From Alphaproteobacteria bacterium (GTDB lineage: Bacteria > Pseudomonadota > Alphaproteobacteria > UBA828), in NCBI GenBank assembly GCA_965248825.1, contig CBDFKL010000006.1, positions 1,025,893 to 1,089,892 on the forward strand: a stretch of DNA of 64,000 bases. Direction: 5' to 3'. Positions within the stretch are counted from its first letter, which is position 1. Each line of letters begins with the position of its first letter. The position numbers and the translations under genes are program-made. The notes beneath the pieces were generated by a model. That model was not told the origin of the DNA. It saw nothing but the letters and a program-made list of their open reading frames with translations, and made no database searches. Of the stretch, positions 4,555 to 59,279 are shown one piece after another.

Positions 4555-4558
4555 CGCC

Positions 4559-5344: not shown

Positions 5345-5384
5345 ACGGAAGGGGCGATCGGGCGGCGGTCGTCGCGGGGGTGTC

Positions 5385-5816
5385 GTGCCGCTGCACCTCC
5401 TGAAGCTTGCCGTCGGCATCGAGGGCGTGGACCATCTGCAGGCGGTTCAGGCCGAGCGGCGTCGGCGCGCGGGCCGCCTGGTGCACATCACCCGCTTCAC
5501 GCCGCGCCGCGCCGCGGAAATTCTGGCCGGCGGCTCTCTCTACTGGGTGGTCAAGCACCGCATTCGCGTGCGTCAACGTATCCTCCGCTTCGACCGGCAC
5601 GAGATCCCCGCCACCGGCGAGACCAAATGCGCGATCGTGCTGGACCACGAATTGATCGCGACCGACCCGGTGCACCGGCGCCCCCATCAGGGGTGGCGCT
5701 ATCTGGACGGTGCCGACGCGCCGCGCGATCTCGGCCCGGTCGGCACGATCGAGCTGCCCGAGGACGCGTTCCCGCCGGAGATGGCCGCGGAGCTCCGCGC
5801 GCTCGGCCTTCTCTAA
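5385..5816 (+). CDS. Conserved alphaproteobacterial hypothetical protein (DUF1489-like)
   Basis: About 143-aa ORF (VPLHLLKLAVGIEGVDHLQAVQAER...RFTPRRAAEILAGGSLYWVVKHRI...). Start assigned to the GTG just after the hydratase stop. The family assignment is from memory of DUF1489 architecture, not a search. Confidence 0.5.
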   Translation: MPLHLLKLAVGIEGVDHLQAVQAERRRRAGRLVHITRFTPRRAAEILAGGSLYWVVKHRIRVRQRILRFDRHEIPATGETKCAIVLDHELIATDPVHRRPHQGWRYLDGADAPRDLGPVGTIELPEDAFPPEMAAELRALGLL

Positions 5817-5877
5817 CCACCGCGCCCGCTTTCTATGCTAAATTTCGGAAGCTGTGAGCGACAAGCGGGAGCGGACC

Positions 5878-6501
5878 ATGAGCGGAACAGATTGGCATAT
5901 CAAGGGCGACTATTTCGAGACCTGCAGCTGCGATTATCTCTGCCCCTGCATCTTCACCAACATGACCGCGATGCCGACCGACGGCGTCTGCAAGGTCGCG
6001 ATCGTGCTGGACATCGCCGACGGACATTATGGCGAGGTTCAACTCGGCGGCGTCGCCTTCGTCACCGCGGTGATGGTCGCCGGGCCGATGGCCGACGGCA
6101 ACTGGACGGTCGGCTTGATCATCGACGACAAGGCGAGCGACGCGCAGGTCGAGGCCCTCGGCGAGATCTGCTCCGGCGATGAAGGCGGCCCGATGGCGTT
6201 GATGGCACCGCTCATCAGCAACTTTGCTGGCATCGAGCGGGCGCCGATCCAGATCGAGCGGCGGCCGATGGGCTTTTCGATCACCGCCGGCGATCTGCTG
6301 CGCCACGGGGCGGAGAGCATTCCGAGCCTCCCCGATCCCGCGCAGCCGATCTATATCGACAACACGGGGCATCCGGCGAACAAGCGGCTCGCGCTCGCCA
6401 AGGGGACGCACAGCCACCTCCACGCCTTCGGCATCGACTGGGACGACGCCGCGGGAAGCCATAACGGCCATTACGCGCCTTTCGACTGGCGCCCGACCTG
6501 A
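5878..6501 (+). CDS. DUF1326-like Cys-rich protein of unknown function
   Basis: N-terminal motif DYFETCSCDYLCPCIFTNM, the CxC(x4)CPC signature I associate with DUF1326. About 207 aa, soluble. Start taken at MSGTDWH. Confidence 0.6.
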   Translation: MSGTDWHIKGDYFETCSCDYLCPCIFTNMTAMPTDGVCKVAIVLDIADGHYGEVQLGGVAFVTAVMVAGPMADGNWTVGLIIDDKASDAQVEALGEICSGDEGGPMALMAPLISNFAGIERAPIQIERRPMGFSITAGDLLRHGAESIPSLPDPAQPIYIDNTGHPANKRLALAKGTHSHLHAFGIDWDDAAGSHNGHYAPFDWRPT

Positions 6502-6597
6502 CGCATTTCCGCCCGCGCGGAATCGTGCCGGCTCGCGTGCTCCTTCTCGAAGATCCTGACGAGGAGCGCGAAGCAGCCGTCATGAGAGGAATCGGCC

Positions 6598-7389
6598 ATG
6601 GGTTTTGAGACGATCGCCCTCGATCGTACGGAAGGGGTGGCGACGCTCACCCTCAGCCGGCCGGACAAGCTCAATAGCGTCAACGAGACGATGCACGCGG
6701 AAATCCGCGAGGCCCTCGCCGCGATCGAGGCCGACGCCGCGATCCGGGCCCTGCTGCTGACCGGTGCCGGACGGGCCTTCTGCGCCGGTCAGGACCTCTC
6801 GGATCCGGCCCTCGGCGAGACCGGCGGCCGCTCCGATCTGGGTGATACGTTGGAGCGAAACTACAATCCCCTGGTGCGGCGCCTGGCCACCATCGAGCTG
6901 CCGGTGGTCGCCGCGGTCAACGGCATCGCGGCCGGCGCAGGCGCCAATATCGCCCTCGCCTGCGATATCGTGCTGGCCGCCCGGTCGGCCGGCTTCCTTC
7001 AAGCCTTCTGCAAGATCGGGCTGATTCCCGATAGCGGTGGAACCCACGCCCTGCCTCGCCTCGTCGGGCCCGCCCGAGCCATGGGTCTCGCCATGTTGGG
7101 CGATATCCTCGACGCCGAAACGGCGGCGGCCTGGGGATTGATCTGGAAATGCGTCGACGACGACGCGCTGATGGACGAGGCCACCTCCCTCGCGCGTCAT
7201 CTCGCGAGCCAGCCGACCACGGGCCTTGCCCTGATCAAGCAGGCCATCCGATCCTCGGCCACCAACGACCTCGACACCCAGCTCGATCTCGAACGCGACC
7301 TGCAAAGGATCGCAGGTGCGACGGATGATTACCGAGAAGGCATCGCGGCGTTTCTCGAAAAGCGCAAGCCCGCCTTCCAGGGCCGTTGA
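6598..7389 (+). CDS. paaG: 2-(1,2-epoxy-1,2-dihydrophenyl)acetyl-CoA isomerase (PaaG; enoyl-CoA hydratase family)
   Basis: Near-collinear match to E. coli PaaG (TLTLSRPDKLNS.N..MHAEI...LLLTGAGRAFCAGQDLSD...ERNYNPLVRRLA...AVNGIAAGAGANIALACDIV.AARSA.F.QAF.KIGLIPD.GGT..LPRLVG.ARAMGLA.LG...AE.A..WGLIW..VDD..L...A..LARHLA.QPT.GLALIKQAI......LDTQLDLERD.QR.AG...DYREG..AFL.KR.P.F). GAGAGGAATCGGCC ribosome-binding site before the ATG. Confidence 0.85.
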   Translation: MGFETIALDRTEGVATLTLSRPDKLNSVNETMHAEIREALAAIEADAAIRALLLTGAGRAFCAGQDLSDPALGETGGRSDLGDTLERNYNPLVRRLATIELPVVAAVNGIAAGAGANIALACDIVLAARSAGFLQAFCKIGLIPDSGGTHALPRLVGPARAMGLAMLGDILDAETAAAWGLIWKCVDDDALMDEATSLARHLASQPTTGLALIKQAIRSSATNDLDTQLDLERDLQRIAGATDDYREGIAAFLEKRKPAFQGR

Positions 7390-7422
7390 ACCCGCGCCGC
7401 GCGGATCGATGGCGCCGGTCCC

Positions 7423-8793
7423 GTGAGCGCGGCTCCCGATCCACCGCCGCAGCCGCTCGATCCCATCGAGACCGCGAGCCGCGACGAGATCGAGGCGCTG
7501 CAGGCCGATCGCCTGCGCCGGACGCTGCGCCACGCCTACGACAATGTCGCCCACTATCGCTCACGCTTCGATGCTCTCGGCCTTTGCCCCGACGATGTGG
7601 ACATGCCGGCCGACATCACCAAGCTTCCGTTCACCGAAAAAGAGGATTTGCGGGCGAACTATCCGTTCGGGCTCCTTGCCGTGTCCCGGCAGCGGATCGC
7701 CCGCATCCATGCCTCGAGCGGAACCACCGGCCACCCGACCGTCGTCGGCCACACCATGCGGGACATCGAGGTCTGGGCCGGTCTGATGGCCCGATCCATT
7801 CGGGCGGCCGGCGGCCGGGCGGGGGACGTCGCCCATGTCGCCTACGGTTACGGCCTGTTCACCGGCGGTCTCGGCGCCCATTACGGCGCCGAGCTTCTGG
7901 GCTGCACGGTGATCCCGGTGTCCGGCGGCATGACGGAGCGCCAAGTCCGGATCATCGACGACCTCAAACCGGATATCATCCTGGTGACGCCGTCCTACAT
8001 GCTGGCCATTGCGGACGAGTTCGAGCGGCAGGGTCTCGATCCCGCCGAGTCTTCGCTCAGGGTCGGCGTGTTCGGCGCGGAACCGTGGACCGAACCGATG
8101 CGCCGGGAAATCGAGGCGCGCTTCGCCATCCACGCCGTCGATATCTACGGTCTCTCGGAGCTGATGGGGCCCGGCGTCGCCTGCGAATGCGTCGAGACCA
8201 AGGACGGCCTGCATCTATGGGAAGATCATTTCTTCCCCGAGATCGTCGATCCGGCGACCGGCGAACCCTTGCCCGACGGAGCGCGGGGCGAGCTCGTCCT
8301 CACGACCTTGAGCCGCGAAGCCATGCCCTTGATCCGCTATCGGACACGCGATCTCACCCGGCTCCTCCCCGGCACCGCCCGAGCCATGCGCCGGCTGGAG
8401 AGGATCACCGGCCGGTCCGACGACATGCTGATCATTCGCGGAGTCAATCTCTTCCCGAGCCAGATCGAGGCGTTGATCCTTCGCATTCCCGATCTCGCCC
8501 CTCACTACCTGCTCGAAGTCCGGCGCGACGGCCGCCTCGACGAACTCGTCGTTCGCGTCGAGGCCCGGGCGGAGACGGTGGACGAACCCGGCCGCCGTGA
8601 TCAGAGCGCGGCGGCTCTCCAGCGTGACATCAAGTCGGTGATCGGGATCAGCGCGAGCGTTCGTATCGCTTCGCCCGGCGAGATCGAGCGCTCCGCCGGC
8701 AAGGCCAAGCGGGTCGTCGATCTCCGGCCCGTCGGCGAGCCTGCCTTGGCTTCGCTATATACTGAAGCCTCCGGATCTCGGCAGCCGGAATGA
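7423..8793 (+). CDS. paaK: Phenylacetate-CoA ligase (PaaK)
   Basis: Very high similarity across the full length to E. coli PaaK (LDPIETAS.DE..ALQ..RL..TL.HAY.NV..YR..FDA.G..PDD ... RIHASSGTTG.PTVVG.T..DI..WA...ARS.RAAGG...D..HVAYGYGLFTGGLGAHYGAE.LG.TVIP.SGG.TE.Q...I.D..PD.I.VTPSY.L....E.ERQ ... LRVGVFGAEPWT..MR.EIE.R..I.A.DIYGLSE.MGPGVA.EC.ET.DG...WEDHF.PEIV.P..G.PL.DG..GEL..TTL..EA.P.IRYRTRDLTRLLPGTAR.MRR..RI.GRSDDMLIIRGVN.FPSQ). GTG start is the first start codon after the paaG stop. Confidence 0.9.
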   Translation: MSAAPDPPPQPLDPIETASRDEIEALQADRLRRTLRHAYDNVAHYRSRFDALGLCPDDVDMPADITKLPFTEKEDLRANYPFGLLAVSRQRIARIHASSGTTGHPTVVGHTMRDIEVWAGLMARSIRAAGGRAGDVAHVAYGYGLFTGGLGAHYGAELLGCTVIPVSGGMTERQVRIIDDLKPDIILVTPSYMLAIADEFERQGLDPAESSLRVGVFGAEPWTEPMRREIEARFAIHAVDIYGLSELMGPGVACECVETKDGLHLWEDHFFPEIVDPATGEPLPDGARGELVLTTLSREAMPLIRYRTRDLTRLLPGTARAMRRLERITGRSDDMLIIRGVNLFPSQIEALILRIPDLAPHYLLEVRRDGRLDELVVRVEARAETVDEPGRRDQSAAALQRDIKSVIGISASVRIASPGEIERSAGKAKRVVDLRPVGEPALASLYTEASGSRQPE

Positions 8794-16346: not shown

Positions 16347-17675
16347 TTGCGGACAACGCAGAGAACACATTGCATCCGGTCGGGCCCGGCCATTCTCGGG
16401 CTCGTTCTTTTCCTCTGCATACTTATCGGCGTCCAGACCCTCGCCGCGCAGCAGGCGCACGCGGGATACGCCTCGATCATCGTCGACGCCGAGACCGGCG
16501 AGGTCCTGCGGTCGCGCAACGCCGACACGCGGAACTATCCGGCCTCGCTGACCAAGCTCATGACTCTCTATCTGCTCTTCGAAGCTGTCGAAGAGGGCCG
16601 GCTCGGTCTCGACACGAAGCTCAAGGTCTCGAAACGGGCGGCCCGACAACCGCCGTCACGGCTCGGTCTGCGTGCCGGCTCGACCATCCGCGTGAAGGAG
16701 GCGATCAACGCGTTGGTCGTCAAGTCGGCCAATGACGTCGCCGTGGTGGTCGCCGAGGCCTTGAGCGGCACGGAGAGACGGTTCGGCGCGCTGATGACCC
16801 GCAAGGCCCGCGCCCTCGGCATGTCCCGAACCACCTTTCGCAATGCATCCGGTCTGCCGAACCGGGCGCAACGGAGCACAGCGCGGGACATGGCGCGACT
16901 CGCCCGCGCCCTGATCCACATTTTCCCCCACCGCTATCACTATTTCGGCGACAAGCGCTATCGCTATTCGGGGACGCTGCACCGCACGCATAACCAGCTG
17001 ATCGGCAGTTATCGCGGCGTCGACGGCATGAAGACCGGCTATATCCGAGCCTCCGGCTTCAACCTCGTGGCGTCGGCCAAGCGCAACGGCAGGCGCATCA
17101 TCGCGGTGGTGCTCGGCGGCAAGACGTCGCGCTCGCGAAACGCTCATATGGTCACGCTCCTCGACATGGGCTTCAAGCGGCTTGTCGCACGCCATGCCAA
17201 GCGTGGCCGCACCCTCTTTGCCGAGATTCCGCAACCGGCGTTCAGGAGCGACTCGGCCGCGCCGGGACCGAGGTTCAAGCCCGCCCCGGTCAGGCTCGCC
17301 CAGGCCCCGAACGCGGCCGAGGTGGCCGCGATCCCCAAACCGGTCAAGACCGCTGCGGTCACCGCGGCGGCGGCCACGGCCGAACGCGCCGCCGGCCGCC
17401 CGTGGAGCATCCAGGTGGGCGCCTATGCGTCGGTCACGGCAGCCGAGATCGCCATCCGCCGTGCCACCGTGCGGAGCCGGCTCCTGGACGGTGTGGCATC
17501 CACTCTGGCGCGCCACGAGGCGCGCCAAGGCACCCTCTATCGGGTCCGCTTCATCGGGCTTTACCGGAGCGACGCCAACCAAGCCTGCCGAGCGGTTCGC
17601 ACCGCCACGATGCCATGCGTCGTGATCCACAACCGTGACATAGGCACCGATCTCGGAGCGCGCGCACGCTCCTGA
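16347..17675 (+). CDS. D-alanyl-D-alanine carboxypeptidase (S11, PBP5/6-like) with C-terminal SPOR domain
   Basis: SxxK (PASLTKLMT), SxN (KSANDVA) and KTG motifs. N-terminal signal-like segment. C-terminal about 80 aa (WSIQVGAYASVTAAEIAIRRATV...LYRVRFIGLYRSDANQACRAVR) looks like a SPOR peptidoglycan-binding domain. Confidence 0.8.
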   Translation: MRTTQRTHCIRSGPAILGLVLFLCILIGVQTLAAQQAHAGYASIIVDAETGEVLRSRNADTRNYPASLTKLMTLYLLFEAVEEGRLGLDTKLKVSKRAARQPPSRLGLRAGSTIRVKEAINALVVKSANDVAVVVAEALSGTERRFGALMTRKARALGMSRTTFRNASGLPNRAQRSTARDMARLARALIHIFPHRYHYFGDKRYRYSGTLHRTHNQLIGSYRGVDGMKTGYIRASGFNLVASAKRNGRRIIAVVLGGKTSRSRNAHMVTLLDMGFKRLVARHAKRGRTLFAEIPQPAFRSDSAAPGPRFKPAPVRLAQAPNAAEVAAIPKPVKTAAVTAAAATAERAAGRPWSIQVGAYASVTAAEIAIRRATVRSRLLDGVASTLARHEARQGTLYRVRFIGLYRSDANQACRAVRTATMPCVVIHNRDIGTDLGARARS

Positions 17676-17687
17676 CGCGGGCTCACC

Positions 17688-19418
17688 CTAACGGGAATCG
17701 TCTCTGCTCGCTCCCTCGAGGCCGTAGGCCTCGCGCGCGGCCGCGGTCGAGATATAGCCCTCCGCGAGGTCTTCACGGACCTGCTCCCGTGGGCGTTTGC
17801 GCGGGTTGCCCCAGCCGCCGCCGCCGGGAGTCTGGAAACGAATCGAATCACCGGGCCGGAAGCGGACATTGCTCCACTTGCTGGGGCTCGCCTTGCCGAA
17901 GGCTTCATCGAACATATGCCAGGAGGTCGTGTTCGCCGCCTGATGCCAAGTGCCGGCGAGACCGCCAGGCTGGCCGCCATTGAGCCCCCACGGCCTGTTG
18001 CGATGGCGGTCGGACATCTGGCTGCCGGTGATCTCGATGTTGAGATTCTTGATCGTGCGCTGTGTGCTGAGCCCGCCGCGATTCTCGCCAGCGCCGCCGG
18101 AATCCGGAACCAACATGTAGGATTCGGTCCGCCACGGGAAGCGGGTCTCGAAAACCTCGACCGGGACCACCCGGCAATTGCCGTTGATCGAATCGGTCGC
18201 ATCGTTGCCGTCGGCGAAGCTGCGCCCGCCCCAACCGGAGAGCTCGATGGCATAGCACACGAACTGCTCCTTGGTGTCCGGATCGGTGCCACCGAACACG
18301 AAGTTGGTGTGGGTCGCGCCCTCGGCCGCCATCGTGCGATCCGGAAGCACCGGTGCCAGCGCGCCGATCACCGCGCCTGCGATCTTGCAATGGGTCTCGG
18401 TATTGCCGCCGACCTCCGGCGCCGGATAGTCGACATTGAGCAGGGTGCCCGGCGGCGAGACCACGCGGATCGGGCGGAAGCATCCGGAGTTCTTCGGAAT
18501 CGTCTCGTCGGTCACGTGCAGGATGCCGTTATAGGCGGCCGAGTAGGAGACGCCGAGCGTCGCGTTGATCGGCCCGCGCGCCTGCGGCGAGGTGCCCGAA
18601 TAATCGATGACGACCTCGTCGCCCTGGACATGGACCGCCACGTTGATCTTGTAGGGCTTGTTCTCTATGCCGTCGTCCTCGACCTGGTCCTGGAATCGAT
18701 AGACTCCGTCCTCGATCGCCCCGAGCTCGGCGCGCATGCGGCTCTCGGAGTAGTCCATCAGATCTTGAACGTTACGGCAGAACTGGTCCTTGCCATATTT
18801 GCGGATCAGGTTTGCAAGGCCGCGCTCGCCGACGTCGACGCCCGCGATCAGAGCGCGGAGATCACCGTAGTTGTAGCGCGGGGTGCGGACGTTCGCGAGC
18901 AACAGCTTCCAGACTTCCTCGACGTCCTCGCCAGCGCTCTTGATCTTGACCGGCGGCACCCGGATCCCTTCTTGGAAGATTTCGGTCGCCTCGCCGGCGA
19001 ACGCGCCCGGGACCATCCCGCCGATCTCCTGGAGATGTCCGATCGTCATGGCGAAGCCCATCAGCTCGTCGTCGACGAAGACGGGTTTGATCAGCGTGTG
19101 CTCGGGACAATGCAGGCCACCGCGATAGGGGTCGTTGTGGCAGATCACATCGCCGGGCTCGAGGGTCTCGAGGGGTATCTCCTTGACGCAGCTCCGCACC
19201 AGCAGAGGCACCCCGCCGATCATCGACGGGCAATATTCGGCTTGGGCGATCATTTCGCCCTCGGGGCTCGCGAGGGCACAGGTAAAGTCGAGCGCCTCAT
19301 TGAAGATCGTCGAATAGGACGTCTTCATCAGGACGATGCCCATCTCGCGGCAGACCGCGGTCATGCTGGAATCGATGATCGACATGGTGACCATGTCGAC
19401 GTCGGATTTCTGGCTCAT
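17688..19418 (-). CDS. Hydantoinase B/oxoprolinase family protein (HyuB)
   Basis: 576 aa. Conserved hydantoinase_B pattern (IDSSMTAVCREMG...NDPYRGGLHCPEHTLIKPVF...). Stop is 1 nt from the hyuA start. Confidence 0.85.
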   Translation of the reverse strand: MSQKSDVDMVTMSIIDSSMTAVCREMGIVLMKTSYSTIFNEALDFTCALASPEGEMIAQAEYCPSMIGGVPLLVRSCVKEIPLETLEPGDVICHNDPYRGGLHCPEHTLIKPVFVDDELMGFAMTIGHLQEIGGMVPGAFAGEATEIFQEGIRVPPVKIKSAGEDVEEVWKLLLANVRTPRYNYGDLRALIAGVDVGERGLANLIRKYGKDQFCRNVQDLMDYSESRMRAELGAIEDGVYRFQDQVEDDGIENKPYKINVAVHVQGDEVVIDYSGTSPQARGPINATLGVSYSAAYNGILHVTDETIPKNSGCFRPIRVVSPPGTLLNVDYPAPEVGGNTETHCKIAGAVIGALAPVLPDRTMAAEGATHTNFVFGGTDPDTKEQFVCYAIELSGWGGRSFADGNDATDSINGNCRVVPVEVFETRFPWRTESYMLVPDSGGAGENRGGLSTQRTIKNLNIEITGSQMSDRHRNRPWGLNGGQPGGLAGTWHQAANTTSWHMFDEAFGKASPSKWSNVRFRPGDSIRFQTPGGGGWGNPRKRPREQVREDLAEGYISTAAAREAYGLEGASRDDSR

Positions 19419-25796: not shown

Positions 25797-26612
25797 TTAC
25801 ACGATCGCGATGTCTGGCGCGTCCGGATGCTTCATGCCGACCACGTGATAGCCGCAATCGACATGGTGAACCTCGCCGGTGACGCCGCGACCGAGATCGC
25901 TGAGCAGATAGGTGGCAGCGCCGCCAACCTCCTCGATCGTGACGTTGCGCCGGAGCGGCGAGTTCAGCTCGTTCCACTTCAGGATATAGCGGAAATCACC
26001 GATCCCCGAGGCGGCCAGCGTCTTGATCGGCCCCGCCGAGATGGCGTTGACCCGGATGTTCCGATCGCCGAGATCGGCGGCAAGATAACGCACGCTCGCC
26101 TCGAGCGCAGCCTTGGCGATCCCCATGACGTTGTAATGCGGCATCCAGCGCTCCGCGCCCATATAGGTAAGGGTCAGAAGACTGCCGCCGTTCTCGCCGA
26201 TCAGGGGAACGGCACGCCGGCAGAGCGCGGTGAACGAGTAGCAGGAGATCCACAGCGTCGTCTGAAAGTTCTCGAGCGAAGTGTCGATATAGCGCCCTTT
26301 CAGCTCCTCGCGATCGGAATAGGCGATCGCGTGGACCAGAAAGTCGAGGCCTCCCCATTGGCGGGCGATGCTCTCGAACACGTGGTCGATGCTGTCGTCA
26401 TCGGTGACATCGCAAGGCAGAAGGAGTTCCGAGCCGACCGATTCGGCGAGCGGCCTGACGCGCTTCTCGAGGGCCTCGCCTTGAAATGTGAAGGCCAGCT
26501 CGGCGCCGTGCTCGGCCAGCGCTCGGGCGATGCCCCACGCGAGCGAGCGGGTGTTCGCGACACCCATCACGATGCCCCGTTTGCCCGCCATCAGCGGCGA
26601 AGCATCGGTCAT
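25797..26612 (-). CDS. fabI: Enoyl-[acyl-carrier-protein] reductase (NADH), FabI
   Basis: [23 protein letters not shown]...Y-x6-K region ([20 protein letters not shown]). About 271 aa. Start at the ATG following a GAGG ribosome-binding site. Confidence 0.9.
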
Positions 26613-26744
26613 CAAAACCTCATTTTTGAGAGCGTTTTCGGCAGGTTGCAGCATCCTACATGAAAGCCCTTGCGCCGCAAGCGCGGGCCCGCCAGCGCAA
26701 CCGATCCCGCTCGTATTCGCCGGGATAGGCGCCGGAACGGCCGC

Positions 26745-50566: not shown

Positions 50567-52000
50567 ATGAGCCATCAGACGATCACGGACGAGCTCTTTT
50601 TCGATCGCGCCGGCCTCGACCGGCCGCGCACCGAAGGGCTTGTGGGTGACGCCCTGCGGGGCACCGACGACGGCGAGCTGTTCCTCGAATACCGCCAGAG
50701 CGAGAGCTTCTCGCTCGACGACGGCCGCCTCAAGAGCGCGACCTTCGACACCAGCCAGGGGTTCGGCCTCCGTGCCGTGATCGGCGAGAGGAGCGCCTAC
50801 GCCCATGCCAGCGAACTCAGCGAGGACGCGCTGAAGAGGGCCGGCGAGACCGTCCGCGCGGTTCGGCGGGGTCACGGTGGAACCCGGGCCGAGGGGCCGT
50901 CGAAGACCGACCGATCACTCTACGCCAGCGACAATCCGCTCGATGCGACGCCCTTCGAGGCCAAGGTCTCGGTGCTGACGGAGATCGATGCCTATGCGAG
51001 AGCGAAAGATCCGCGGGTGCGCCAGGTGATGGCGTCTCTGCTCGGCGCGTGGCAGGCGGTGCAGATCGTCCGCGCCGACGGCAGCCGCGCCTTCGACGTG
51101 CGCCCGCTCGTGCGCCTCAACGTCGCGGTCATGGTCGGCGAGGGTACGCGCCAGGAGACCGGCTCCCACGGGGTCGGCGGGCGGGTCGCCTATGCCGAGT
51201 TCCTGGCGCCCGCGCGCTGGCAGGCGCAGGTCGACGAGGCGCTCCGCCAGGCGTTGATCAATCTCGACTCGGTCGCCGCACCCGCCGGCGAGATGCCGGT
51301 TGTACTCGGCCCGGGCTGGCCCGGCATCCTGCTCCATGAGGCGATCGGCCACGGCCTGGAGGGCGATTTCAACCGCAAGAAGACCAGCGCGTTCTCCGGC
51401 CTGCTCGGCGAGCGGGTCGCGGCGCCGGGCGTCACCGTGGTCGACGACGGGACCATCGAGCGGCGGCGCGGCTCGCTCACGGTCGACGACGAGGGAACGC
51501 CGACCGACCGCACGGTGCTGATCGAGGACGGCATCCTCCGCGGCTATCTTCAGGACCGCATGAACGCGCGCCTGATGGGCATGGAGCCGACCGGCAACGG
51601 ACGGCGCGAGAGCTTTGCCCACGTGCCCATGCCGCGCATGACCAATACCTTCATGCTGGACGGCGACAGCGAGCCGGAAGAGATCATGCGCCGGGTCAAG
51701 AGGGGCATCTACGCCAAGAATTTCGGCGGCGGCCAAGTCGACATTACCTCCGGCAAGTTCGTGTTTTCGGCCGCCGAGGCCTATCTGATCGAGGACGGCA
51801 AGACGACCGCGCCGCTCAAGGGCGCGAGTCTGATCGGCAACGGCCCGGACGTGCTCACCAGGGTCGCGGCGATCGGCAATGACTTCGCCCTCGATCCCGG
51901 GATCGGCACCTGCAGCAAGAACGGCCAGGGCGTGCCGGTCGGCGTCGGCCTGCCCACGCTGCTCGTCGATCCGATCATCGTCGGCGGCACCGAAGCCTGA
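50567..52000 (+). CDS. tldD: Metalloprotease TldD
   Basis: 477 aa. GPGWPGILLHEAIGHGLEGDFN (HExxxH site) and C-terminal GTCSKNGQGVPVGVGLPTLLV. Confidence 0.9.
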   Translation: MSHQTITDELFFDRAGLDRPRTEGLVGDALRGTDDGELFLEYRQSESFSLDDGRLKSATFDTSQGFGLRAVIGERSAYAHASELSEDALKRAGETVRAVRRGHGGTRAEGPSKTDRSLYASDNPLDATPFEAKVSVLTEIDAYARAKDPRVRQVMASLLGAWQAVQIVRADGSRAFDVRPLVRLNVAVMVGEGTRQETGSHGVGGRVAYAEFLAPARWQAQVDEALRQALINLDSVAAPAGEMPVVLGPGWPGILLHEAIGHGLEGDFNRKKTSAFSGLLGERVAAPGVTVVDDGTIERRRGSLTVDDEGTPTDRTVLIEDGILRGYLQDRMNARLMGMEPTGNGRRESFAHVPMPRMTNTFMLDGDSEPEEIMRRVKRGIYAKNFGGGQVDITSGKFVFSAAEAYLIEDGKTTAPLKGASLIGNGPDVLTRVAAIGNDFALDPGIGTCSKNGQGVPVGVGLPTLLVDPIIVGGTEA

Positions 52001-52122: not shown

Positions 52123-52191
52123 CCGGCCGCCGTTCAAGACGCGCGGCGGGGTGCCCGCTGCGCGCTCTTTTCTCTATGAGGAGGCTTGAAT

Positions 52192-52560
52192 TTGGCTCGC
52201 ATCGCCGGCGTCAACATCCCGACCAACAAGCGGGTCGAGATCGCGCTCACATATATCCACGGAATCGGGCGCACCAAGGCCAGGCAAATCCGCGAGACGG
52301 TCGGGCTGCCGCGCGAAAAGCGCGTAAACCAGCTCAGCGACGCCGAAGTCATCCGCATCCGCGAAGTGATCGACCAGGACCATATGGTCGAGGGCGACCT
52401 GCGCCGCGAGGTTGCGATGAACATCAAGCGGCTGATGGATCTGGGGACCTATCGGGGTCTCAGGCATCGCCGTGGCCTGCCGGTGCGCGGTCAGCGGACC
52501 CATACCAACGCACGCACCCGCAAGGGGCCCGCCCGCCCGATCGCGGGCAGGAAGAAGTAG
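52192..52560 (+). CDS. rpsM: 30S ribosomal protein S13
   Basis: [26 protein letters not shown]... from a TTG start 7 nt after a GAGGAGG ribosome-binding site. The track's longer ORF starts at an upstream TTG that sits too close to the ribosome-binding site. Confidence 0.9.
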
Positions 52561-54094: not shown

Positions 54095-54532
54095 ATGCGT
54101 CATCGCCACAGCGGACGCAAGCTGAACCGGACGTCGAGCCATCGCCGAGCGATGTTCCGCAACATGGCGGCCTCGCTGCTCAAGCACGAGCAGATCGAGA
54201 CCACGCTTCCCAAGGCCAAGGCCTTGCGCGGCGTCGTCGAGCGGATGATCACGCTCGGCAAGCGCGGCGACCTTCACGCCCGCAGGCAGGCGCTCGGCTA
54301 TCTCAGCGATGAAACGGTGGTGCGCAAGCTGTTCGACACGCTCGGCCCCCGCTATGCCGAGCGCCCGGGCGGCTATACCCGCGTGCTGAAGGCCGGCTTC
54401 CGTTACGGCGATTCGGCACCGATGGCGGTCATCGAGCTGGTCGAGCGGGACGAGGACGAAAAGGGCAAGGATTCGGGTCCGGTTCCGAGCGACGACGACG
54501 CCGACGAGGCCGAAGAGACCGAGGCGGCGTAG
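54095..54532 (+). CDS. rplQ: 50S ribosomal protein L17
   Basis: [57 protein letters not shown] ribosome-binding site upstream. Confidence 0.9.
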
Positions 54533-54553
54533 CCGACCGCTTCGGACCCCCGC

Positions 54554-55186
54554 TCAGTTCGGAAACGCCTGCTTCAGCTCGGCGACCTGATGGTCCGTGA
54601 GCAGCCGCACCGGCGCGCCGCGCAGCAGCAGGTGCAGCTTCGCCGTCTCTTCCAGCTCCTCCGCGGCATAGACCGCCGCGTCGAGCGCTTTGCCGGCCAC
54701 CACGGGGCCGTGATTGGCGAGCAGCACGGCGTGATGGGCGCGCGCGAAGCCGCGCACCGCCTCCGCGAGGGCGTGATCGCCGGGCCGGTAATAGGGAACC
54801 AGCGGCAGCCGGCCGACCCGCATCACGTAATAGGCGGTGATCGGCGGCAACACATCCTCGGGATCGACATCCGCGAGACAGGAGACCGCGACCGAGTGGG
54901 TGCTGTGCAGGTGCACGATGGCGCGCGCATCCGGTCGCGCCTGGTACATCGCACGATGGAGGAACGCCTCCTTCGAGGGCGGGTCGCCGGAGAGCGCGGC
55001 GCCGTCTGGCCCGAGCTTCGCGATCTGCCCGGGGTCGAGCCGGCCGAGGCAGGAATTGGTCGGCGTGACAAGAAGCCCGTCGTCGAGCATCACGCTGATA
55101 TTGCCCGAGGCGCCACAGCCATAGCCGCGCGCAAACAGGGATTCGCCATGGCGCGCGATCCGCTCGCGCAGCGCCGTCTCGCTCAC
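54554..55186 (-). CDS. Class II aldolase/adducin family protein, 3-oxo-tetronate-4-phosphate decarboxylase (OtnC)-like
   Basis: GNISVML...LVTPTNSCLGRL...HLHSTHSVAV...ANHGPVVAGK metal-binding His pattern. GTG start overlaps the upstream kinase stop (GTGA). The track's upstream ATG would overlap the kinase by 100 nt. Confidence 0.65.
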   Translation of the reverse strand: MSETALRERIARHGESLFARGYGCGASGNISVMLDDGLLVTPTNSCLGRLDPGQIAKLGPDGAALSGDPPSKEAFLHRAMYQARPDARAIVHLHSTHSVAVSCLADVDPEDVLPPITAYYVMRVGRLPLVPYYRPGDHALAEAVRGFARAHHAVLLANHGPVVAGKALDAAVYAAEELEETAKLHLLLRGAPVRLLTDHQVAELKQAFPN

Positions 55187-56481
55187 CCGAGAACCGCGAA
55201 AGACTTGGTGAAGAAGTCGGGTCCGCCGAAATTGCCGGACTTGAGCGCGAGGTGGAGCCGGGGCGTGCCGACGCTCATCGTCCACGGCACACCCGGGTCG
55301 ATCTCGCGCCCGATGCGGAGAGCCTCGATGCCGAGAGCGCCGACCACGGCGCCCGCGGTCTCGCCGCCGGCCACGATCAGGCGCCCGACGCCGGCATCGA
55401 CCAGGCCTGCGGCGACGCGCGCCAGGCAGCGCTCGATCAGGGCGCCGGCTTTTTCAACGCCAAGCTGCTTTTGAATTCGCTTGACCCGCCGCGGCTCCGC
55501 GCTGGCGTAGATCAACACCGGCCCGTCGGCGAGAAGCGGTTTTGCCCAGGCGAGCGCCCGGGCAGCGACGTTTTTGCGGGCGGCGAGGGCCTCAGCATCG
55601 ACGAAGAACGCCGGACACCGCGCGCGCATGCGCTCGATTTGCCCGAGGGTGGCCTCCGAACAGCTCCCGGCGATCACCGCCGCGTGGCCCGAAGCGGCGG
55701 GCAGGGCGGCCGCTTGCGTGGTCGCCGCGAGCAACCCGCCCTTCCGGTAATTGGCCGGCAGCCCCATCGCGACGCCGGAGCCGCCGGTGATCAAGGGCAG
55801 CGCGGCACAGGCCGCGCCGATCGCGGTCAGGTCCTTGTCGGCGATGGCGTCGACGATCACATGGCGCGTGCCCGCATCGCGCAGCGCATCGAGCGCGCGG
55901 CGGATCGCCGCGGCCCCCTTGCGCACGGTCTCGTGCCCGACCAGCCCGACGTCATGCGGCGTCTGGGCGCCGAGCACCTTGACGAGATCGGAATCCCGCA
56001 TCGGCGTGAGCGGGTGGTTACGCATGCCGGATTTCTCGAGCAGCACGTCGCCGACGAACAAGTGGCCCTTGTAGACGGTCCGTCCGTTGGTCGGGAAGGC
56101 CGGGCAGGCGATGGTCACATCGCCGTCGAGATCGTCGAGCAGCGCGTCGGCGACCGGCCCGATATTGCCGCGACTCGTCGAATCGAAGGTCGAGCAGTAT
56201 TTGAAGAAGATCTGCCGCGCGCCACAGCGCCTGAGCCAGTCGAGCGCCGCCCGGGAATCGCGCACCGCTCTTGCCGGCGCGATCGTGCGTGACTTGAGCG
56301 CGACCACCACGGCGTCGGCATCGGGGGCGGCGGTCTTCACGCGCGGAACGTCGATCACCTGGACGGTGCGCATGCCTTGCGCGACCAGGGTGTTGCAGAG
56401 GTCGGTCGCGCCCGTGAGGTCGTCGGCGAGCGCGCCGAGCAGGAGGCCTGCGGAGCCGCGCCCCGCGCCGCGCGGCGCCAT
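55183..56481 (-). CDS. Four-carbon acid sugar kinase family protein (DUF1537/DUF2257; OtnK/DtnK-like)
   Basis: N-terminal LADDLTGATDL (DUF1537 signature) and C-terminal nucleotide-binding domain (LIVAGGETAGAVV..LGI). 432 aa. Starts 2 nt after the gcdH stop. Confidence 0.7.
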   Translation of the reverse strand: MAPRGAGRGSAGLLLGALADDLTGATDLCNTLVAQGMRTVQVIDVPRVKTAAPDADAVVVALKSRTIAPARAVRDSRAALDWLRRCGARQIFFKYCSTFDSTSRGNIGPVADALLDDLDGDVTIACPAFPTNGRTVYKGHLFVGDVLLEKSGMRNHPLTPMRDSDLVKVLGAQTPHDVGLVGHETVRKGAAAIRRALDALRDAGTRHVIVDAIADKDLTAIGAACAALPLITGGSGVAMGLPANYRKGGLLAATTQAAALPAASGHAAVIAGSCSEATLGQIERMRARCPAFFVDAEALAARKNVAARALAWAKPLLADGPVLIYASAEPRRVKRIQKQLGVEKAGALIERCLARVAAGLVDAGVGRLIVAGGETAGAVVGALGIEALRIGREIDPGVPWTMSVGTPRLHLALKSGNFGGPDFFTKSFAVLG

Positions 56482-56483
56482 CC

Positions 56484-57698
56484 TCAGGCGAATGCCTGGA
56501 TGCCGGTTTGGGCCCGGCCCAGGATCAACGCATGGACGTCGTGCGTGCCTTCATAGGTGTTGACCGCTTCGAGATTCATGACGTGGCGGATCACGTGATA
56601 CTCGTCGCTGATCCCGTTGCCGCCATGCATGTCGCGGGCCATGCGGGCGATCTCGATCGCCTTGCCGCATGAGTTGCGCTTGATCAGCGAGATCATCTCG
56701 GGCATCGCGCGCCCCTCATCGAAGAGCCGGCCGACGCGGATGCTGGCTTGCAGGCCGATCGCAATCTCGGTCTGCATATCGGCGAGCTTCTTCTGGATGA
56801 GCTGGTTGGCCGCGAGCGGCTTGCCGAACTGCTTGCGCTCGAGCGTGTAGTCACGGGCGGCGCGCCAGCAGAACTCCGCGGCGCCGAGCGCCCCCCAGGC
56901 GATGCCGAAGCGCGCCCGGTTGAGGCACCGGAACGGGCCCGAGAGCCCGCTCGCACCGGGAAGCTCGTTTTCCGCCGGCACGAACACCTCGTCCATCTGA
57001 ATCATCCCGGTCACCGAGGCGCGCAGTGAGAATTTGCCCGCGATCTTGGGCGCGGCGAGGCCCTTCATCCCCCTTTCGAGCAGGTAGCCGCGGATCGTGC
57101 CCTGGTCGTTTTTTGCCCACACCACGAAGACATCGGCGATCGGAGAATTGGTAATCCAATTCTTCGCGCCGGAAACCAGAAAGCCGCCATCGACCGACCG
57201 CGCCCGGGTCACCATGCCGCCCGGGTCGGACCCGAAGTCGGGCTCGGTCAGGCCGAAGCAACCGATCGCCTCGCCGGTCGCGAGGCGGGGCAGCCAGCTC
57301 TTCTTCTGCGCCTCGGTGCCGTAAGCCTCGATCGGATACATCACGAGGCTCGACTGGACGCTCATCGCCGAGCGATAGCCGGAATCGACCGCCTCCACCT
57401 CCCGCGCGGCGAGGCCATAAGAGACATAGTTGACACCGGCGCAGCCATAGCCCTGGATGGTCGAGCCCAACAGGCCGAGCGCGCCCATTTCGTTCATGAT
57501 CTCGCGGTCGAAGCGCTCGTGCCGATTCGCCTCGAGAATGCGCGGCATCAGCTTCTCTTGGGCATAGCCGCGCGCCGTGTCCCGCACCAACCGCTCGTCC
57601 TCGCCGAGCTGATCGTCGAGCAGGAACGGGTCGTCCCACTGGAAGGTCGGCTGCGCATGGTGAGACGCGGCCTTGGCGGCCGCCGCGGTTTGGCTCAT
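56484..57698 (-). CDS. gcdH: Glutaryl-CoA dehydrogenase-like acyl-CoA dehydrogenase
   Basis: 404 aa acyl-CoA dehydrogenase with a GcdH-like pattern ([28 protein letters not shown]...[50 protein letters not shown]. .[26 protein letters not shown]). GGGAGGG ribosome-binding site before the ATG. Confidence 0.85.
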
Positions 57699-57799
57699 GA
57701 TTCCCTCCCGGACGACGCGCTGTTCTAGCATTCGGGCCGGAGAGCACCAAGCCCGCGCCGGCTCGGCCATGATTCTGCGATCTCCGAGAGGCTCTGCCG

Positions 57800-58741
57800 A
57801 TGTCCGCCGATCCGCGCCCTGCCCGGAAACCCGGGACCGCCGCCGGCACCAGCCCGGTCACGCTCGGGATGCTGTTCGTCCTCGGCGTTTCCTTTGCGCT
57901 CGCCGTTTCGCTCAACCGGTTCGCGACGACCAGCGGCGTTCCGTTCGCACCTTATGTGTTTTGGCAATCGCTCGGCGGGGGCGCCGCGCTGCTGATCATG
58001 GCGGCTGCGCTTCGCCGCCTGCCGCCATTCGATTTCCCGCATGTTCGCGTCTATCTTTCCGCCGGCGCGTTGAATCTCGCCTTTCCCTACATGCTGCTTG
58101 CCTACCTCGCGCCCAAGGTGCCCGCGAGCCTGCTTTCGCTCGGCCTGTCGCTGGTCCCGGTCATGATCTATGCGCTGGCGCTGGCGCTCCGACTCGACCG
58201 GTTCCACCCGTTCCGTTTCGGCGGGATCCTGCTCGGGCTCGCCGGCATTCTCCTGGTGCTGGTGCCTCGGGCGAGTCTTCCGGCGCCGGGCATGGCCGGC
58301 TGGGTGGCGCTCGGCTTGTTGCCCTCGCTCTCCTACGCGGTCAACGCGGTGCTGGTCGCGCGGTGGCGGCCGCGGGAGACGACGTCACTGCCGCTCGCCG
58401 CGGGCCTCATGCTCGCCTCCGCGGCTTACGTCCTCCTGGTGATGGCCGCGACCGGGGACTGGTGGGCCTTCGGCGGCGCGTTCGGGGTCGGCCATGGGGC
58501 GACGATCGGCGCCATGGCCAACAACTGCGTCTCCTTCTACTTGGTCTTCGAGATCATTCGCCGCGCCGGCCCGGTGATTTTCTCGACCGTCAACTACATC
58601 GCCACGCTCTCCGGCATGGGCTTCGGCATCTGGTTCTTCAGCGACGCGCCATCGGCGTGGATCTGGGGCGCGGTCGTGCTGATGTTCGCCGGCCTCTTTC
58701 TGGTAACCGTGACCGGCCGCGGCCGCGGCGCGGCGGATTAG
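57800..58741 (+). CDS. EamA/DMT-superfamily transporter
   Basis: 313 aa, about 10 TM helices in two EamA-like halves. Confidence 0.75.
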
Positions 58742-58832: not shown

Positions 58833-59279
58833 TTACTTGACGCTGCGTTTGCGCCGCCGAACCTTCGTCCGCTTCTGGCCGAGGCCGATCTTCTTCGCGA
58901 ACTCGGACCGTCGCTTGGCGTAGCTGGGCGCGACCATCGGATAGTCGGGATCCAGTCCCCACTTCGCCCGATACTCGTCCGGCGTCATCCCGTAGGCCGT
59001 GCGCAAATGCCGCTTCAGCATTTTCAGTTTTCGGCCGTCCTCGAGGCAAATGACAAAGTCGGGCGTGACCGACTTCTTGATCGGAACGGCCGGCTTCAAC
59101 GGCTTGGCGGCTGCCGCGGTGCCGTCCTGTGCTTGCCTCAGAGAGGCATGGACGTTGCGAATGACCTCCGAAAGATCCGATGGGGCCACCGTATTATTGC
59201 CCACATAGGCGGTCACGACGTCTGCAGCCATTCGCAGGAGATCCTGGTCCTGGCTGGGATTCTGAGTCTGATCGTTCAT
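58833..59279 (-). CDS. mucR: MucR/Ros family transcriptional regulator (variant zinc finger: CLEDG instead of CLECG)
   Basis: Collinear with Ros/MucR (LLRMAADVVTAYVGNNTVAPSDL...VHASL...KPAVPIKKSVTPDFVICLEDGRKLKMLKRHLRTAYGMTPDEYRAKWGLDPDYPMVAPSYAKRRSEFAKKIGLGQKR). The second zinc-ligand Cys of Ros is replaced by Asp. Confidence 0.85.
   Translation of the reverse strand: MNDQTQNPSQDQDLLRMAADVVTAYVGNNTVAPSDLSEVIRNVHASLRQAQDGTAAAAKPLKPAVPIKKSVTPDFVICLEDGRKLKMLKRHLRTAYGMTPDEYRAKWGLDPDYPMVAPSYAKRRSEFAKKIGLGQKRTKVRRRKRSVK

What the first reader, a model, noticed from the sequence alone, without database searches (positions are those of the whole stretch)
54554..57698. gcdH-otnK-otnC operon linking glutaryl-CoA dehydrogenase with a four-carbon acid-sugar kinase and decarboxylase
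Three same-strand genes show coupling signatures: the gcdH stop is 2 nt from the otnK ATG, and the otnK TGA overlaps the otnC GTG (GTGA). The DUF1537 kinase plus class II aldolase-type decarboxylase pair is the OtnK/OtnC core of L-threonate/D-erythronate catabolism. The usual partners (OtnI isomerase, a dehydrogenase, the transporter) are absent. It is instead fused to glutaryl-CoA dehydrogenase, a lysine/tryptophan/aromatic catabolic enzyme with no obvious metabolic link. This implies either an unusual substrate for the kinase/decarboxylase pair, such as a hydroxy-diacid from glutarate or lysine metabolism, or unusual regulation.
Basis: partly seen in the sequence, partly recalled or inferred. 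Interest (0 to 1): 0.5.

Follow-up and report, generated by a model that had tools for sequence, protein, structure and literature searches.

The report
Lineage-specific gcdH–otnK–otnC operon
Three ordinary catabolic genes (glutaryl-CoA dehydrogenase, 3-oxo-tetronate kinase and its decarboxylase) are packed into one transcription unit in a group of uncultured marine Alphaproteobacteria. The sugar-acid pair most likely landed just downstream of a resident gcdH and now rides on its promoter, so no new pathway is implied.

Summary
On the minus strand lie gcdH (57698..56484), otnK (56481..55183) and otnC (55186..54554), joined by TGAggATG and an overlapping GTGA.

- **Gene identities are solid.** GcdH scores 607 bits against human GCDH, with R94, S98, Y369 and E370 conserved. 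OtnK and OtnC score far above NCBIfam's equivalog cut-offs.
- **Partners are missing locally.** No OtnI, LtnD, DenD or GntP-type transporter homologue lies in the 64 kb window, nor within about 10 kb in relatives.
- **The trio is conserved.** It occurs in 28 distinct fetched loci (26 of them species-representative genomes), plus three further contigs, despite rearranged flanks. The 4-nt otnK/otnC overlap is present in every locus.
- **The "unusual substrate" inference is not supported.** The gcdH-linked OtnKs form one clade nested inside canonical OtnKs, and 150 of 159 (OtnK) and 84 of 89 (OtnC) outgroup-conserved columns are unchanged.
- **gcdH does not need otnKC.** Three gcdH orthologues at about 80% identity lack otnKC, one of them in the same syntenic frame. 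All 53 outgroup otnKC loci lack gcdH.
- **Split otn loci and an OtnI bypass are already published.**

Best reading: a single historical insertion, kept because otnKC depends on the gcdH promoter. Whether the upstream dehydrogenase and isomerase lie elsewhere in the genome could not be tested. Interest is low to moderate.

The parts
56484..57698 (-). gcdH, glutaryl-CoA dehydrogenase (404 aa); first gene of the unit
   Evidence: All three ACAD Pfam domains are present. It scores 607 bits against human GCDH (1sir) over the full length, with the [16 protein letters not shown] (R94, S98) and TYEGTHD (Y369, E370) segments conserved. No NCBIfam model reaches its cut-off.
55183..56481 (-). otnK, 3-oxo-tetronate kinase (DUF1537 family, 432 aa); its ATG lies 2 nt after the gcdH stop
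   Evidence: NCBIfam OxoTetrKin 607.8 bits (cut-off 350); Pfam SBD_N plus NBD_C; 471 bits to PDB 5dmh.
54554..55186 (-). [quoted passage not shown]
   Evidence: NCBIfam OxoTetrPhDc 327.7 bits (cut-off 250). N29, T43, S71, E73, H92, H94 and H159 align with the E. coli FucA ligand positions.
57722..57750 (-). Promoter-like element upstream of gcdH: TTGGTG, 17 nt, TAGAAC, about 25 nt before the ATG
   Evidence: The core CTTGG(T/A)GC, about 15 nt, ATGCTAGAA is conserved in the 27 aligned intergenic regions, including the distant marine members. The generic sigma-70 scan did not report it. Function is inferred only.
57703..57709 (-). Shine-Dalgarno-like GGGAGGG before the gcdH ATG
   Evidence: the (G/A)GGAG(G/A) motif is conserved in the alignment.
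57800..58741 (+). EamA/DMT permease (313 aa), divergent from gcdH across a 101-nt spacer; candidate substrate transporter
   Evidence: two EamA domains; weak TIGR00950. By my tally it is adjacent in most clade loci that hold enough upstream sequence. No hit was found in L011, and it is absent from the P0308 contig.
58833..59279 (-). Ros/MucR-family regulator, convergent with the permease gene; commonly next to the block
   Evidence: It is 79% identical to the L010 Ros/MucR protein. The neighbour cluster is present in 16 clade loci.

Best explanation
gcdH, otnK and otnC form one transcription unit driven by a promoter in the 101-nt gcdH/EamA spacer. otnK and otnC are translationally coupled to the gene ahead of them. 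Each enzyme does its ordinary job. GcdH oxidatively decarboxylates glutaryl-CoA from lysine or tryptophan breakdown. OtnK phosphorylates 3-oxo-tetronate, and OtnC decarboxylates the product to DHAP.

The link is historical rather than metabolic. In the ancestor of one lineage of uncultured Alphaproteobacteria, a promoter-less otnKC pair came to lie directly downstream of a resident gcdH. It has stayed there because separating it would silence it. The steps that make 3-oxo-tetronate are encoded elsewhere in the genome. These would be a threonate or erythronate dehydrogenase plus OtnI, or a 3-dehydrogenase that bypasses OtnI. The divergent EamA permease may import the acid sugar.

Shown here: the gene identities, the junctions, the conservation and the presence/absence pattern. 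Inferred: co-transcription, the promoter, the location of the upstream enzymes and the permease's role.
For: 1. **Canonical enzymes.** OtnK and OtnC score well above their equivalog cut-offs. The gcdH-linked OtnKs form a single clade nested within canonical OtnKs, sister to L030/L032 (L032 has an adjacent OtnI), with no long branch. 150 of 159 OtnK columns and 84 of 89 OtnC columns that are at least 90% conserved in outgroups are unchanged. The OtnC residues aligned with the FucA metal and phosphate ligands are conserved. The GcdH active-site segments match human GCDH: the R94/S98 segment is identical and the Y369/E370 motif differs by one conservative residue.
2. **One origin.** None of 53 outgroup otnKC loci has a GcdH-type ACAD nearby. 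Instead 15 have OtnI, 12 have DenD (NF043036, 393 bits), and others have SDRs or ABC transporters.
3. **gcdH is the resident gene.** L086 (GcdH 82% identical) shows rib-nrdR-glyA-rpiB | gcdH | Mo-oxidoreductase-mmsB-ECH-ACAD with no otnKC and no EamA. The P0308 contig (84%) has the same two flanks with otnKC inserted right after gcdH. L085 and L089 (80-82%) have gcdH alone.
4. **No room for a separate promoter.** The gcdH-otnK gap is 0-10 nt in 28 of the 30 rows scored, which include the window and a duplicate locus, and the otnK/otnC overlap is 4 nt in all 30. No intergenic terminator was found. A conserved promoter-like motif occurs only upstream of gcdH.
5. **The block survives flank turnover.** The rplQ flank is kept in 22 loci and the rpiB flank in 4. 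Neither is seen in L002, L023 and L026-28.
6. **Published precedent.** In P. litorisediminis, 3OtnK and 3OtnC (GL300_RS02600/02605) lie far from the Ltn2D/Ltn3D cluster (RS07850-08000). An SDR L-threonate 3-dehydrogenase makes OtnI dispensable (PMC12994016).
Against: - No dehydrogenase or isomerase for the upstream steps was found, because the rest of the genome could not be searched.
- A search with an alphaproteobacterial OtnI listed no hit on a contig whose length matches a known clade genome. This is weak evidence, since only the best 120 representatives are listed.
- Retention of the exact trio across EamA identities as low as 50-60% and several flank rearrangements is also what selection for co-expression would produce.
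- A few conserved positions do differ in the main subclade: OtnK S149E, R168A/K/T and P296A; OtnC S26A and S56A. Their structural location was not examined.
- Co-transcription and the promoter are inferred from sequence only.
Confidence: 0.62

Rival explanations
1. Selected co-regulation without shared chemistry. The operon and the divergent permease are kept together because lysine-derived glutaryl-CoA and ascorbate-derived C4 acid sugars (L-threonate, D-erythronate) are met in the same niche, for example host-derived material. One promoter then serves both catabolic branches.
For: The trio is intact in 28 distinct fetched loci (26 of them species-representative genomes) plus three further contigs, despite rearranged flanks. 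A conserved promoter-like motif is present. EamA is adjacent in most clade loci that hold enough upstream sequence (my tally). Several members carry sponge-style bin names (RHO, APA); that these are sponge MAGs is my recollection, not a tool result.
Against: Nothing shows co-induction. No specific regulator lies in the block; the only one nearby is Ros/MucR, which I recall as a global regulator. otnKC is absent from close gcdH loci. Promoter dependence alone explains the same conservation.
Confidence: 0.2
2. A real metabolic link. The clade's OtnK/OtnC act on a non-tetronate substrate connected with glutarate or lysine catabolism, or on a compound imported by EamA whose breakdown yields both a glutaryl-CoA precursor and a 3-oxo hydroxy acid.
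For: No OtnI, LtnD or DenD lies within about 10 kb in any clade locus. A few clade-specific substitutions occur at otherwise conserved positions. OtnK/OtnC are known to accept C5 and C6 3-oxo acids in vitro (PMC12994016). A second OtnK paralogue in the marine subclade hints at more than one substrate.
Against: The pair sits in the canonical clade with equivalog-level scores and about 94% of conserved columns unchanged. gcdH and otnKC each occur without the other in close relatives. No CoA ligase, CoA transferase or hydroxylase that could bridge the two chemistries is in the block. No paper in the library holds both 'glutaryl-CoA dehydrogenase' and 'tetronate'.
Confidence: 0.1
3. Adjacent but separately transcribed. 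An internal promoter in the 3' part of gcdH drives otnKC, so the tight spacing reflects compaction only.
For: Alphaproteobacterial promoters are poorly captured by the sigma-70 scan, so an internal promoter cannot be excluded.
Against: Spacers of 0-10 nt and conserved ATG placement right after the stop fit translational coupling. No promoter-like hit was found on the minus strand within gcdH. The only conserved non-coding motif is upstream of gcdH.
Confidence: 0.08

Closest known systems
Four-step L-threonate/D-erythronate pathway cluster (E. coli ygbI-JKLMN; Zhang et al. 2016 PNAS, as summarised in PMC12540250 and PMC12994016)
   Same: It has an OtnK (DUF1537) plus an OtnC (Aldolase_II type) pair. 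E. coli YgbK is 42% and YgbL 52% identical to the window proteins. Many alphaproteobacterial otn loci show the same 4-nt otnK/otnC overlap (coordinates).
   Different: The E. coli cluster also carries LtnD (ygbJ), OtnI (ygbM), a GntP transporter (ygbN) and a DeoR repressor (ygbI). None of these has a homologue in the window. Here the upstream gene is gcdH and the only nearby transporter is an EamA/DMT permease.
Paracoccus litorisediminis split otn arrangement with the SDR L-threonate 3-dehydrogenase bypass (PMC12994016)
   Same: The 3OtnK/3OtnC pair (GL300_RS02600/02605) is located away from the dehydrogenase and isomerase genes (GL300_RS07850-08000). OtnI is dispensable when Ltn3D supplies 3-oxo-L-threonate directly.
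   Different: No gcdH linkage is reported there. Whether this clade has an Ltn3D-type SDR is unknown. The window's only SDR hit reads as FabI, an unconfirmed call.
Glutaryl-CoA dehydrogenase (human GCDH 1sir/2r0n; Burkholderia pseudomallei 3gnc/3eom; Brucella 4w9u)
   Same: Full-length alignment at 596-607 bits. The catalytic base E370, Y369 and the carboxylate-binding R94 and S98 are conserved.
   Different: In Pseudomonas, gcdH sits with a CoA-transferase (gcdG) and a LysR regulator (gcdR); this is from memory and was not tested here. In this window it heads an operon with two sugar-acid genes.
Three-step 2-OtnK/2-OtnC pathway (Guo et al. 2024, as cited in PMC12540250)
   Same: It is also an OtnI-less route from L-threonate to DHAP that uses a DUF1537 kinase.
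   Different: Its decarboxylase has an F_bP_aldolase domain. The window's OtnC is Aldolase_II, so the window pair is the 3-oxo type and still needs a source of 3-oxo-tetronate.

Membership tests
3-oxo-tetronate kinase (OtnK, DUF1537; NCBIfam NF043035) | Two-domain architecture (SBD_N plus NBD_C) and a score above the curated equivalog cut-off | tested here: met
   Pfam PF07005 262 bits and PF17042 156 bits. NF043035 607.8 bits against a cut-off of 350. The next families, OiaK (147) and DtnK (145), fall far below their cut-offs.
3-oxo-tetronate kinase (OtnK, DUF1537; NCBIfam NF043035) | Phylogenetic placement with OtnKs from canonical otn clusters and with solved or characterised members | tested here: met
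   The NJ tree nests the clade among OtnI- or DenD-linked OtnKs. It scores 471 bits to PDB 5dmh over the full length. That 5dmh is the characterised R. eutropha H16 OtnK is my recollection. E. coli YgbK is 42% identical.
3-oxo-tetronate kinase (OtnK, DUF1537; NCBIfam NF043035) | ATP-dependent phosphorylation of 3-oxo-tetronate at O4 | not testable with these tools
   This needs an enzyme assay. The only proxy is that 150 of 159 outgroup-conserved columns are kept.
[quoted passage not shown] | Aldolase_II domain, a score above the equivalog cut-off, and conserved metal (3 His plus Glu) and phosphate-binding residues | tested here: met
   NF043034 327.7 bits against 250; PF00596 161 bits. H92, H94, H159, E73, N29, T43 and S71 align with E. 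coli FucA and YgbL. That these are the FucA ligand positions is my recollection. Best PDB hits are 6vop and 6voq.
[quoted passage not shown] | Genetic pairing with OtnK | tested here: met
   The 4-nt overlap with otnK is present in the window and in all 29 other rows scored.
Canonical four-step otn gene cluster | Clustered LtnD or DenD dehydrogenase and OtnI isomerase, usually with a transporter and a regulator | tested here: not met
   No homologue of E. coli LtnD, OtnI, YgbN or YgbI, or of alphaproteobacterial DenD or OtnI, was found in the 64 kb window or within about 10 kb in clade loci. The LtnD-like hits in L024 and L027 are mmsB in a valine-catabolism cluster.
Canonical four-step otn gene cluster | Presence of the upstream enzymes anywhere in the same genome | tested here: inconclusive
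   The source contig (4,062,941 bp) could not be retrieved. An OtnI search listed no hit on a contig length belonging to a clade genome, but only the best 120 cluster representatives are shown.
Glutaryl-CoA dehydrogenase (GCDH/GcdH) | ACAD three-domain fold with the catalytic Glu (human E370) and the carboxylate-binding Arg (R94), plus orthologue-level similarity to characterised GCDHs | tested here: met
   Pfam N, M and C domains are present. It scores 607 bits to human GCDH, with the R94/S98 and Y369/E370 segments conserved, and 606 bits to B. pseudomallei GCDH. Sources name close homologues 'glutaryl-CoA dehydrogenase'. No NCBIfam model reaches its cut-off; the only GCDH model there is the non-decarboxylating Desulfococcus type (174 against 470).

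The most novel reading that the evidence does not exclude
The conserved EamA | gcdH-otnK-otnC block is a functional module. Either the OtnK/OtnC pair of this clade has shifted to a hydroxy-oxo acid tied to glutarate or lysine (or hydroxylysine) breakdown. Or the module handles one imported compound, or one niche-specific mix such as host lysine plus ascorbate-derived threonate. In either case the genomes would make 3-oxo-tetronate by an enzyme not yet recognised.
Probability: 0.12. Interest if true: 0.6.

Novelty: new member of a known kind. Interest (0 to 1): 0.27.

Why it matters
The main value is as a caution for genome-context function prediction. The case shows a tight, translationally coupled operon, conserved across dozens of species-level genomes, that joins two unrelated pathways. 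The most likely reason is that the downstream pair depends on the upstream gene's promoter.

It also adds a new genomic context for OtnK/OtnC: orphaned from OtnI and the dehydrogenases, next to a DMT permease, in uncultured marine Alphaproteobacteria. That makes the clade a reasonable place to look for alternative sources of 3-oxo-tetronate, such as Ltn3D-like enzymes, and for an acid-sugar DMT transporter. If the minority reading were right, it would reveal a new substrate for the DUF1537 kinase and class II aldolase decarboxylase pair.

Tried and rejected
- **Exact-sequence look-ups of the source genome.** Look-ups of the window's OtnK and GcdH (404- and 428-aa versions, and P0242) in the contig index all failed. 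The cluster tables show that the proteins exist on a 4,062,941-bp NCBI/ENA contig. The rest of the genome therefore could not be read.
- **Contig-length trick for OtnI.** I searched with the L032 OtnI and looked for hits whose contig length equals a clade genome. None matched among the 120 listed. This is inconclusive, because only cluster representatives and only hits of about 60% identity or more are shown.
- **LtnD-like hits downstream in L024 and L027.** I rejected them as otn partners. They are mmsB, sitting beside a 3-hydroxyisobutyryl-CoA hydrolase-type ECH and an ACAD, which is a valine-catabolism cluster.
- **The window's only SDR hit (25797..26654).** I rejected it as an Ltn3D candidate. 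It reads as FabI from its sequence motif and its position next to a chorismate-synthase-like gene; this was not confirmed with a family search.
- **Twenty further window ORFs scanned with Pfam.** None was a beta-hydroxyacid dehydrogenase, an SDR or a TIM-barrel isomerase.
- **Terminators and regulatory RNAs.** The terminator scan gave only weak intragenic matches. Rfam found no riboswitch or leader near the operon.
- **Horizontal-transfer signal.** GC content is 65.7% for gcdH, 70.9% for otnK and 69.8% for otnC, against 67.1% for the window. That difference is not distinctive.
- **Literature.** No paper in the library holds both 'glutaryl-CoA dehydrogenase' and 'tetronate'. Zhang et al. 2016 (PMC4961189) is not held, so it is cited only through papers that summarise it.
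Full report
**Observation.** The window is high-GC, at 67%. Three ORFs with coding-type GC3 (0.81-0.87) lie head to tail on the minus strand between 57698 and 54554.
- The sequence shows GGGAGGGAATC-ATG at 57698, where gcdH starts.
- It shows TGA-GG-ATG at 56486..56479, the gcdH stop followed by the otnK start.
- It shows GTGA at 55186..55183, where the otnC start overlaps the otnK stop.

**Gene identities.**
- *gcdH.* The first protein has the three ACAD domains. It aligns end to end with human glutaryl-CoA dehydrogenase at 607 bits, B. pseudomallei GCDH at 606 bits and a Brucella ACAD at 596 bits. The segments holding R94 and S98 ([16 protein letters not shown]) and Y369 and E370 (TYEGTHD) are conserved. 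No NCBIfam model reaches its cut-off, but the library's only GCDH model is the Desulfococcus type.
- *otnK.* The second protein is SBD_N plus NBD_C (DUF1537). It scores 607.8 bits on the OxoTetrKin equivalog model (cut-off 350), while OiaK and DtnK models stay far below theirs. Its best solved relative is 5dmh at 471 bits over the full length.
- *otnC.* The third protein is an Aldolase_II protein scoring 327.7 bits on OxoTetrPhDc (cut-off 250). The residues aligned with the FucA and YgbL metal and phosphate ligands are conserved: H92, H94, H159, E73, N29, T43 and S71. Because the decarboxylase is Aldolase_II and not F_bP_aldolase, the pair is the '3-oxo' type of the four-step pathway, not the 2-OtnK/2-OtnC three-step type (PMC12540250).

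**Surroundings.**
- Downstream, convergent and only 21 nt away, is rplQ (54095..54532), preceded by rpoA, rpsK and rpsM.
- Upstream, divergent across 101 nt, is an EamA/DMT permease at 57800..58741.
- Next comes a convergent Ros/MucR gene at 59279..58833.
- Beyond that lie rpiB, glyA, nrdR, ribD and ribE.

tblastn with the E. coli ygbI-N products fetched from MG1655 finds only OtnK and OtnC in the 64 kb window. It finds no LtnD, OtnI, GntP transporter or DeoR regulator. Alphaproteobacterial DenD, OtnI and ApnL-like queries also find nothing. The single SDR hit reads as FabI next to a chorismate-synthase-like gene, an unconfirmed call. Pfam scans of 20 further window ORFs show no candidate dehydrogenase or isomerase.

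**Conservation.** One scan of species-representative genomes returned 80 OtnK loci. A tblastn survey of these, plus loci found through protein look-ups, shows the following.
- Every locus whose OtnK is at least about 64-66% identical to the window's carries a GcdH-type ACAD immediately upstream of otnK-otnC. That is 26 genomes from the scan plus L001 and L002. Most also have the divergent EamA gene.
- L024 is cut at the contig edge and cannot be scored.
- None of the 53 more distant loci has such an ACAD.
- Junctions are conserved. The gcdH-otnK gap is 0-10 nt in 28 of the 30 rows scored, which include the window itself and duplicate locus L003. The other two are L025 (about 54 nt) and L028 (about 660 nt). 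The otnK/otnC overlap is 4 nt in all 30.
- Flanks are not conserved. The rplQ side is shared by 22 loci and the rpiB side by 4. L002, L023 and L026-L028 share neither.
- The closest relative outside the window's own genome (L001, 92%) has an IS element inserted near the block.
- L002 (75%) has the block between pst/pho genes and an M23 peptidase gene.

The trio is thus a stable unit in a lineage of uncultured Alphaproteobacteria and Rhodospirillales MAGs.

**Has the kinase/decarboxylase pair diverged?**
- An NJ tree places all gcdH-linked OtnKs in one clade nested inside the canonical radiation. Its sisters are L030 and L032, and L032 has OtnI adjacent. Branch lengths are unremarkable.
- Of 159 OtnK columns conserved in at least 90% of outgroup sequences, 150 keep the same residue in the clade. 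For OtnC the figure is 84 of 89.
- The exceptions are OtnK S149E, R168A/K/T and P296A, and OtnC S26A and S56A. These were not mapped on a structure.

This gives no positive sign of a new specificity.

**What otnKC usually sits next to.** Clustering of neighbours in the 53 outgroup loci, with family scans, gives the following.
- OtnI in 15 loci.
- DenD (NF043036, 393 bits) in 12 loci.
- A classical SDR in 8 loci.
- ABC sugar-transporter genes.
- A 655-aa apionate-lactonase-like gene in 11 loci.

Many outgroup loci show neither OtnI nor an LtnD-like gene in the held flank. Local absence of OtnI is therefore common, not peculiar.

**What gcdH sits next to when otnKC is absent.** A search with GcdH and context look-ups gave the key comparison.
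- L086 (82% identical) reads rib-nrdR-glyA-rpiB | gcdH | Mo-oxidoreductase-mmsB-ECH-ACAD. It has no otnKC and no EamA.
- The JGI contig of P0308 (84%) has the same left and right flanks, but with Ros/MucR, a DUF6898 gene and gcdH-otnK-otnC. It has no EamA.
- L087 and L088 (85%) have rpiB | Ros | DUF6898 | OmpA | two EamA | gcdH-otnK'-otnK-otnC.
- L085 and L089 (80-82%) have DUF6898 | gcdH alone, beside a Liv-type ABC transporter.

An identity-based NJ tree of GcdH interleaves otnKC-less and otnKC-linked sequences, but it is not robust. Taken together, gcdH is the resident gene, and otnKC (and, separately, EamA) are present or absent directly beside it. Each partner functions without the other in close relatives.

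**Expression signals.**
- The gcdH/EamA spacers of 27 loci align on a conserved CTTGG(T/A)GC, about 15 nt, ATGCTAGAA element about 25 nt before the gcdH start. In the window this is TTGGTG at 57750..57745, 17 nt, then TAGAAC at 57727..57722.
- otnKC-less relatives L085 and L089 have a similar CTTGCC...GATAGC arrangement upstream of gcdH.
- The generic scan found no promoter on the minus strand within the operon, and only weak intragenic terminator-like matches.
- No Rfam element lies near the operon.

Co-transcription from a gcdH promoter is therefore the simplest reading, but it remains an inference.

**Literature.**
- Watanabe et al. 2026 (PMC12994016) identified an SDR L-threonate 3-dehydrogenase that yields 3-oxo-L-threonate directly, bypassing LtnD and OtnI.
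- The same paper shows that 3OtnK and 3OtnC accept C5 and C6 3-oxo acids in vitro.
- It uses 3OtnK/3OtnC genes (GL300_RS02600/02605) that lie far from the dehydrogenase and isomerase cluster (GL300_RS07850-08000).
- No paper in the library holds both 'glutaryl-CoA dehydrogenase' and 'tetronate', so the gcdH linkage appears undescribed.

**Explanation.** The best-supported account is a single historical juxtaposition. A promoter-less, internally coupled otnKC pair came to lie right behind a resident gcdH in the ancestor of this lineage. Since then it has been expressed from the gcdH promoter, which is enough to preserve the adjacency while the flanks turn over. The enzymes keep their standard activities, and the source of 3-oxo-tetronate is encoded elsewhere (confidence about 0.6).

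The rivals are:
- selected co-regulation of two niche-linked catabolic branches (about 0.2);
- a true metabolic link or shifted substrate (about 0.1);
- separate transcription from an internal promoter (under 0.1).

**What could not be done.** The window comes from a 4,062,941-bp contig present in NCBI and ENA, but it could not be fetched. An indirect attempt was inconclusive.

**Verdict.** The arrangement is conserved and apparently unreported. The evidence favours ordinary enzymes in an accidental but self-preserving operon over a new pathway. I file it as new members of known families in a new genomic context, with interest of about 0.27.

Noticed in passing
L083:8043-10010 (+) and 10 other outgroup loci (cluster C16): A 655-aa D-apionate-lactonase-like gene ends at the OtnK start in 11 loci, alongside ABC sugar-transporter genes. 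It scores 680 bits on NF049900, below the cut-off of 750, and has no Pfam hit at 1e-5. An OtnK/OtnC-type pair in an apionate-like context may mark a further acid-sugar pathway variant.
   Followed up: partly
L026:2067-3380, L027:3494-4765, L024:32-1426, L087:7242-8555; L088:7242-8563; L028:5184-5847: The marine subclade carries a second OtnK paralogue between gcdH and otnK. It scores 543 bits on OxoTetrKin and sits on a longer branch. In L088 it is split into two ORFs (257 and 182 aa), and L028 has a 660-nt gap at that position, which suggests decay of the extra copy in some genomes.
   Followed up: partly
window 57722-57750 (-): A promoter-like element, CTTGG(T/A)GC, about 15 nt, ATGCTAGAA, lies upstream of gcdH. 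It is conserved across all 27 aligned clade spacers, including members whose EamA is only 50-60% identical. No obvious palindromic operator sits beside it.
   Followed up: partly
window 54533-54553: The otnC and rplQ stop codons are convergent with only 21 nt between them and no terminator-like hairpin. Transcripts from the operon and from the ribosomal alpha operon may read into each other.
   Followed up: no
L085:5618-5971, L089:5562-5966, L087:2548-2781 (not in window): A small DUF6898 gene is divergent from gcdH in otnKC-less relatives, and is also present near the block in L087 and the P0308 contig. tblastn finds no copy in the window. It may be the ancestral divergent neighbour that EamA displaced.
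   Followed up: partly
window 50567-52000 (+) and 52136-52224 (+): An ORF just upstream of rpsM corresponds by position to the AidB_N-type ACAD of the syntenic L001 locus; I did not scan it directly. A sub-threshold Rfam Alpha_RBS match (26.7 bits against a gathering score of 38) lies in front of rpsM.
   Followed up: no
window 2929-8793 (+): A run of acyl-CoA metabolism genes: a carboxyltransferase (541 aa), two enoyl-CoA hydratases, and a phenylacetate-CoA-ligase-like AMP-binding enzyme, followed by an AurF-like di-iron protein with a weak match. It is unrelated to the finding, but it shows that the genome is rich in CoA-dependent catabolism.
   Followed up: no
L001:6207-6941 and L031:8576-9751, 17586-18761: Insertion sequences lie close to the otn genes in relatives. 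L001 has a DDE_Tnp_1 transposase between the EamA/Ros genes and rpiB. L031 has two copies of an ISNCY transposase flanking its otnK region. This fits with otnKC being moved around.
   Followed up: no
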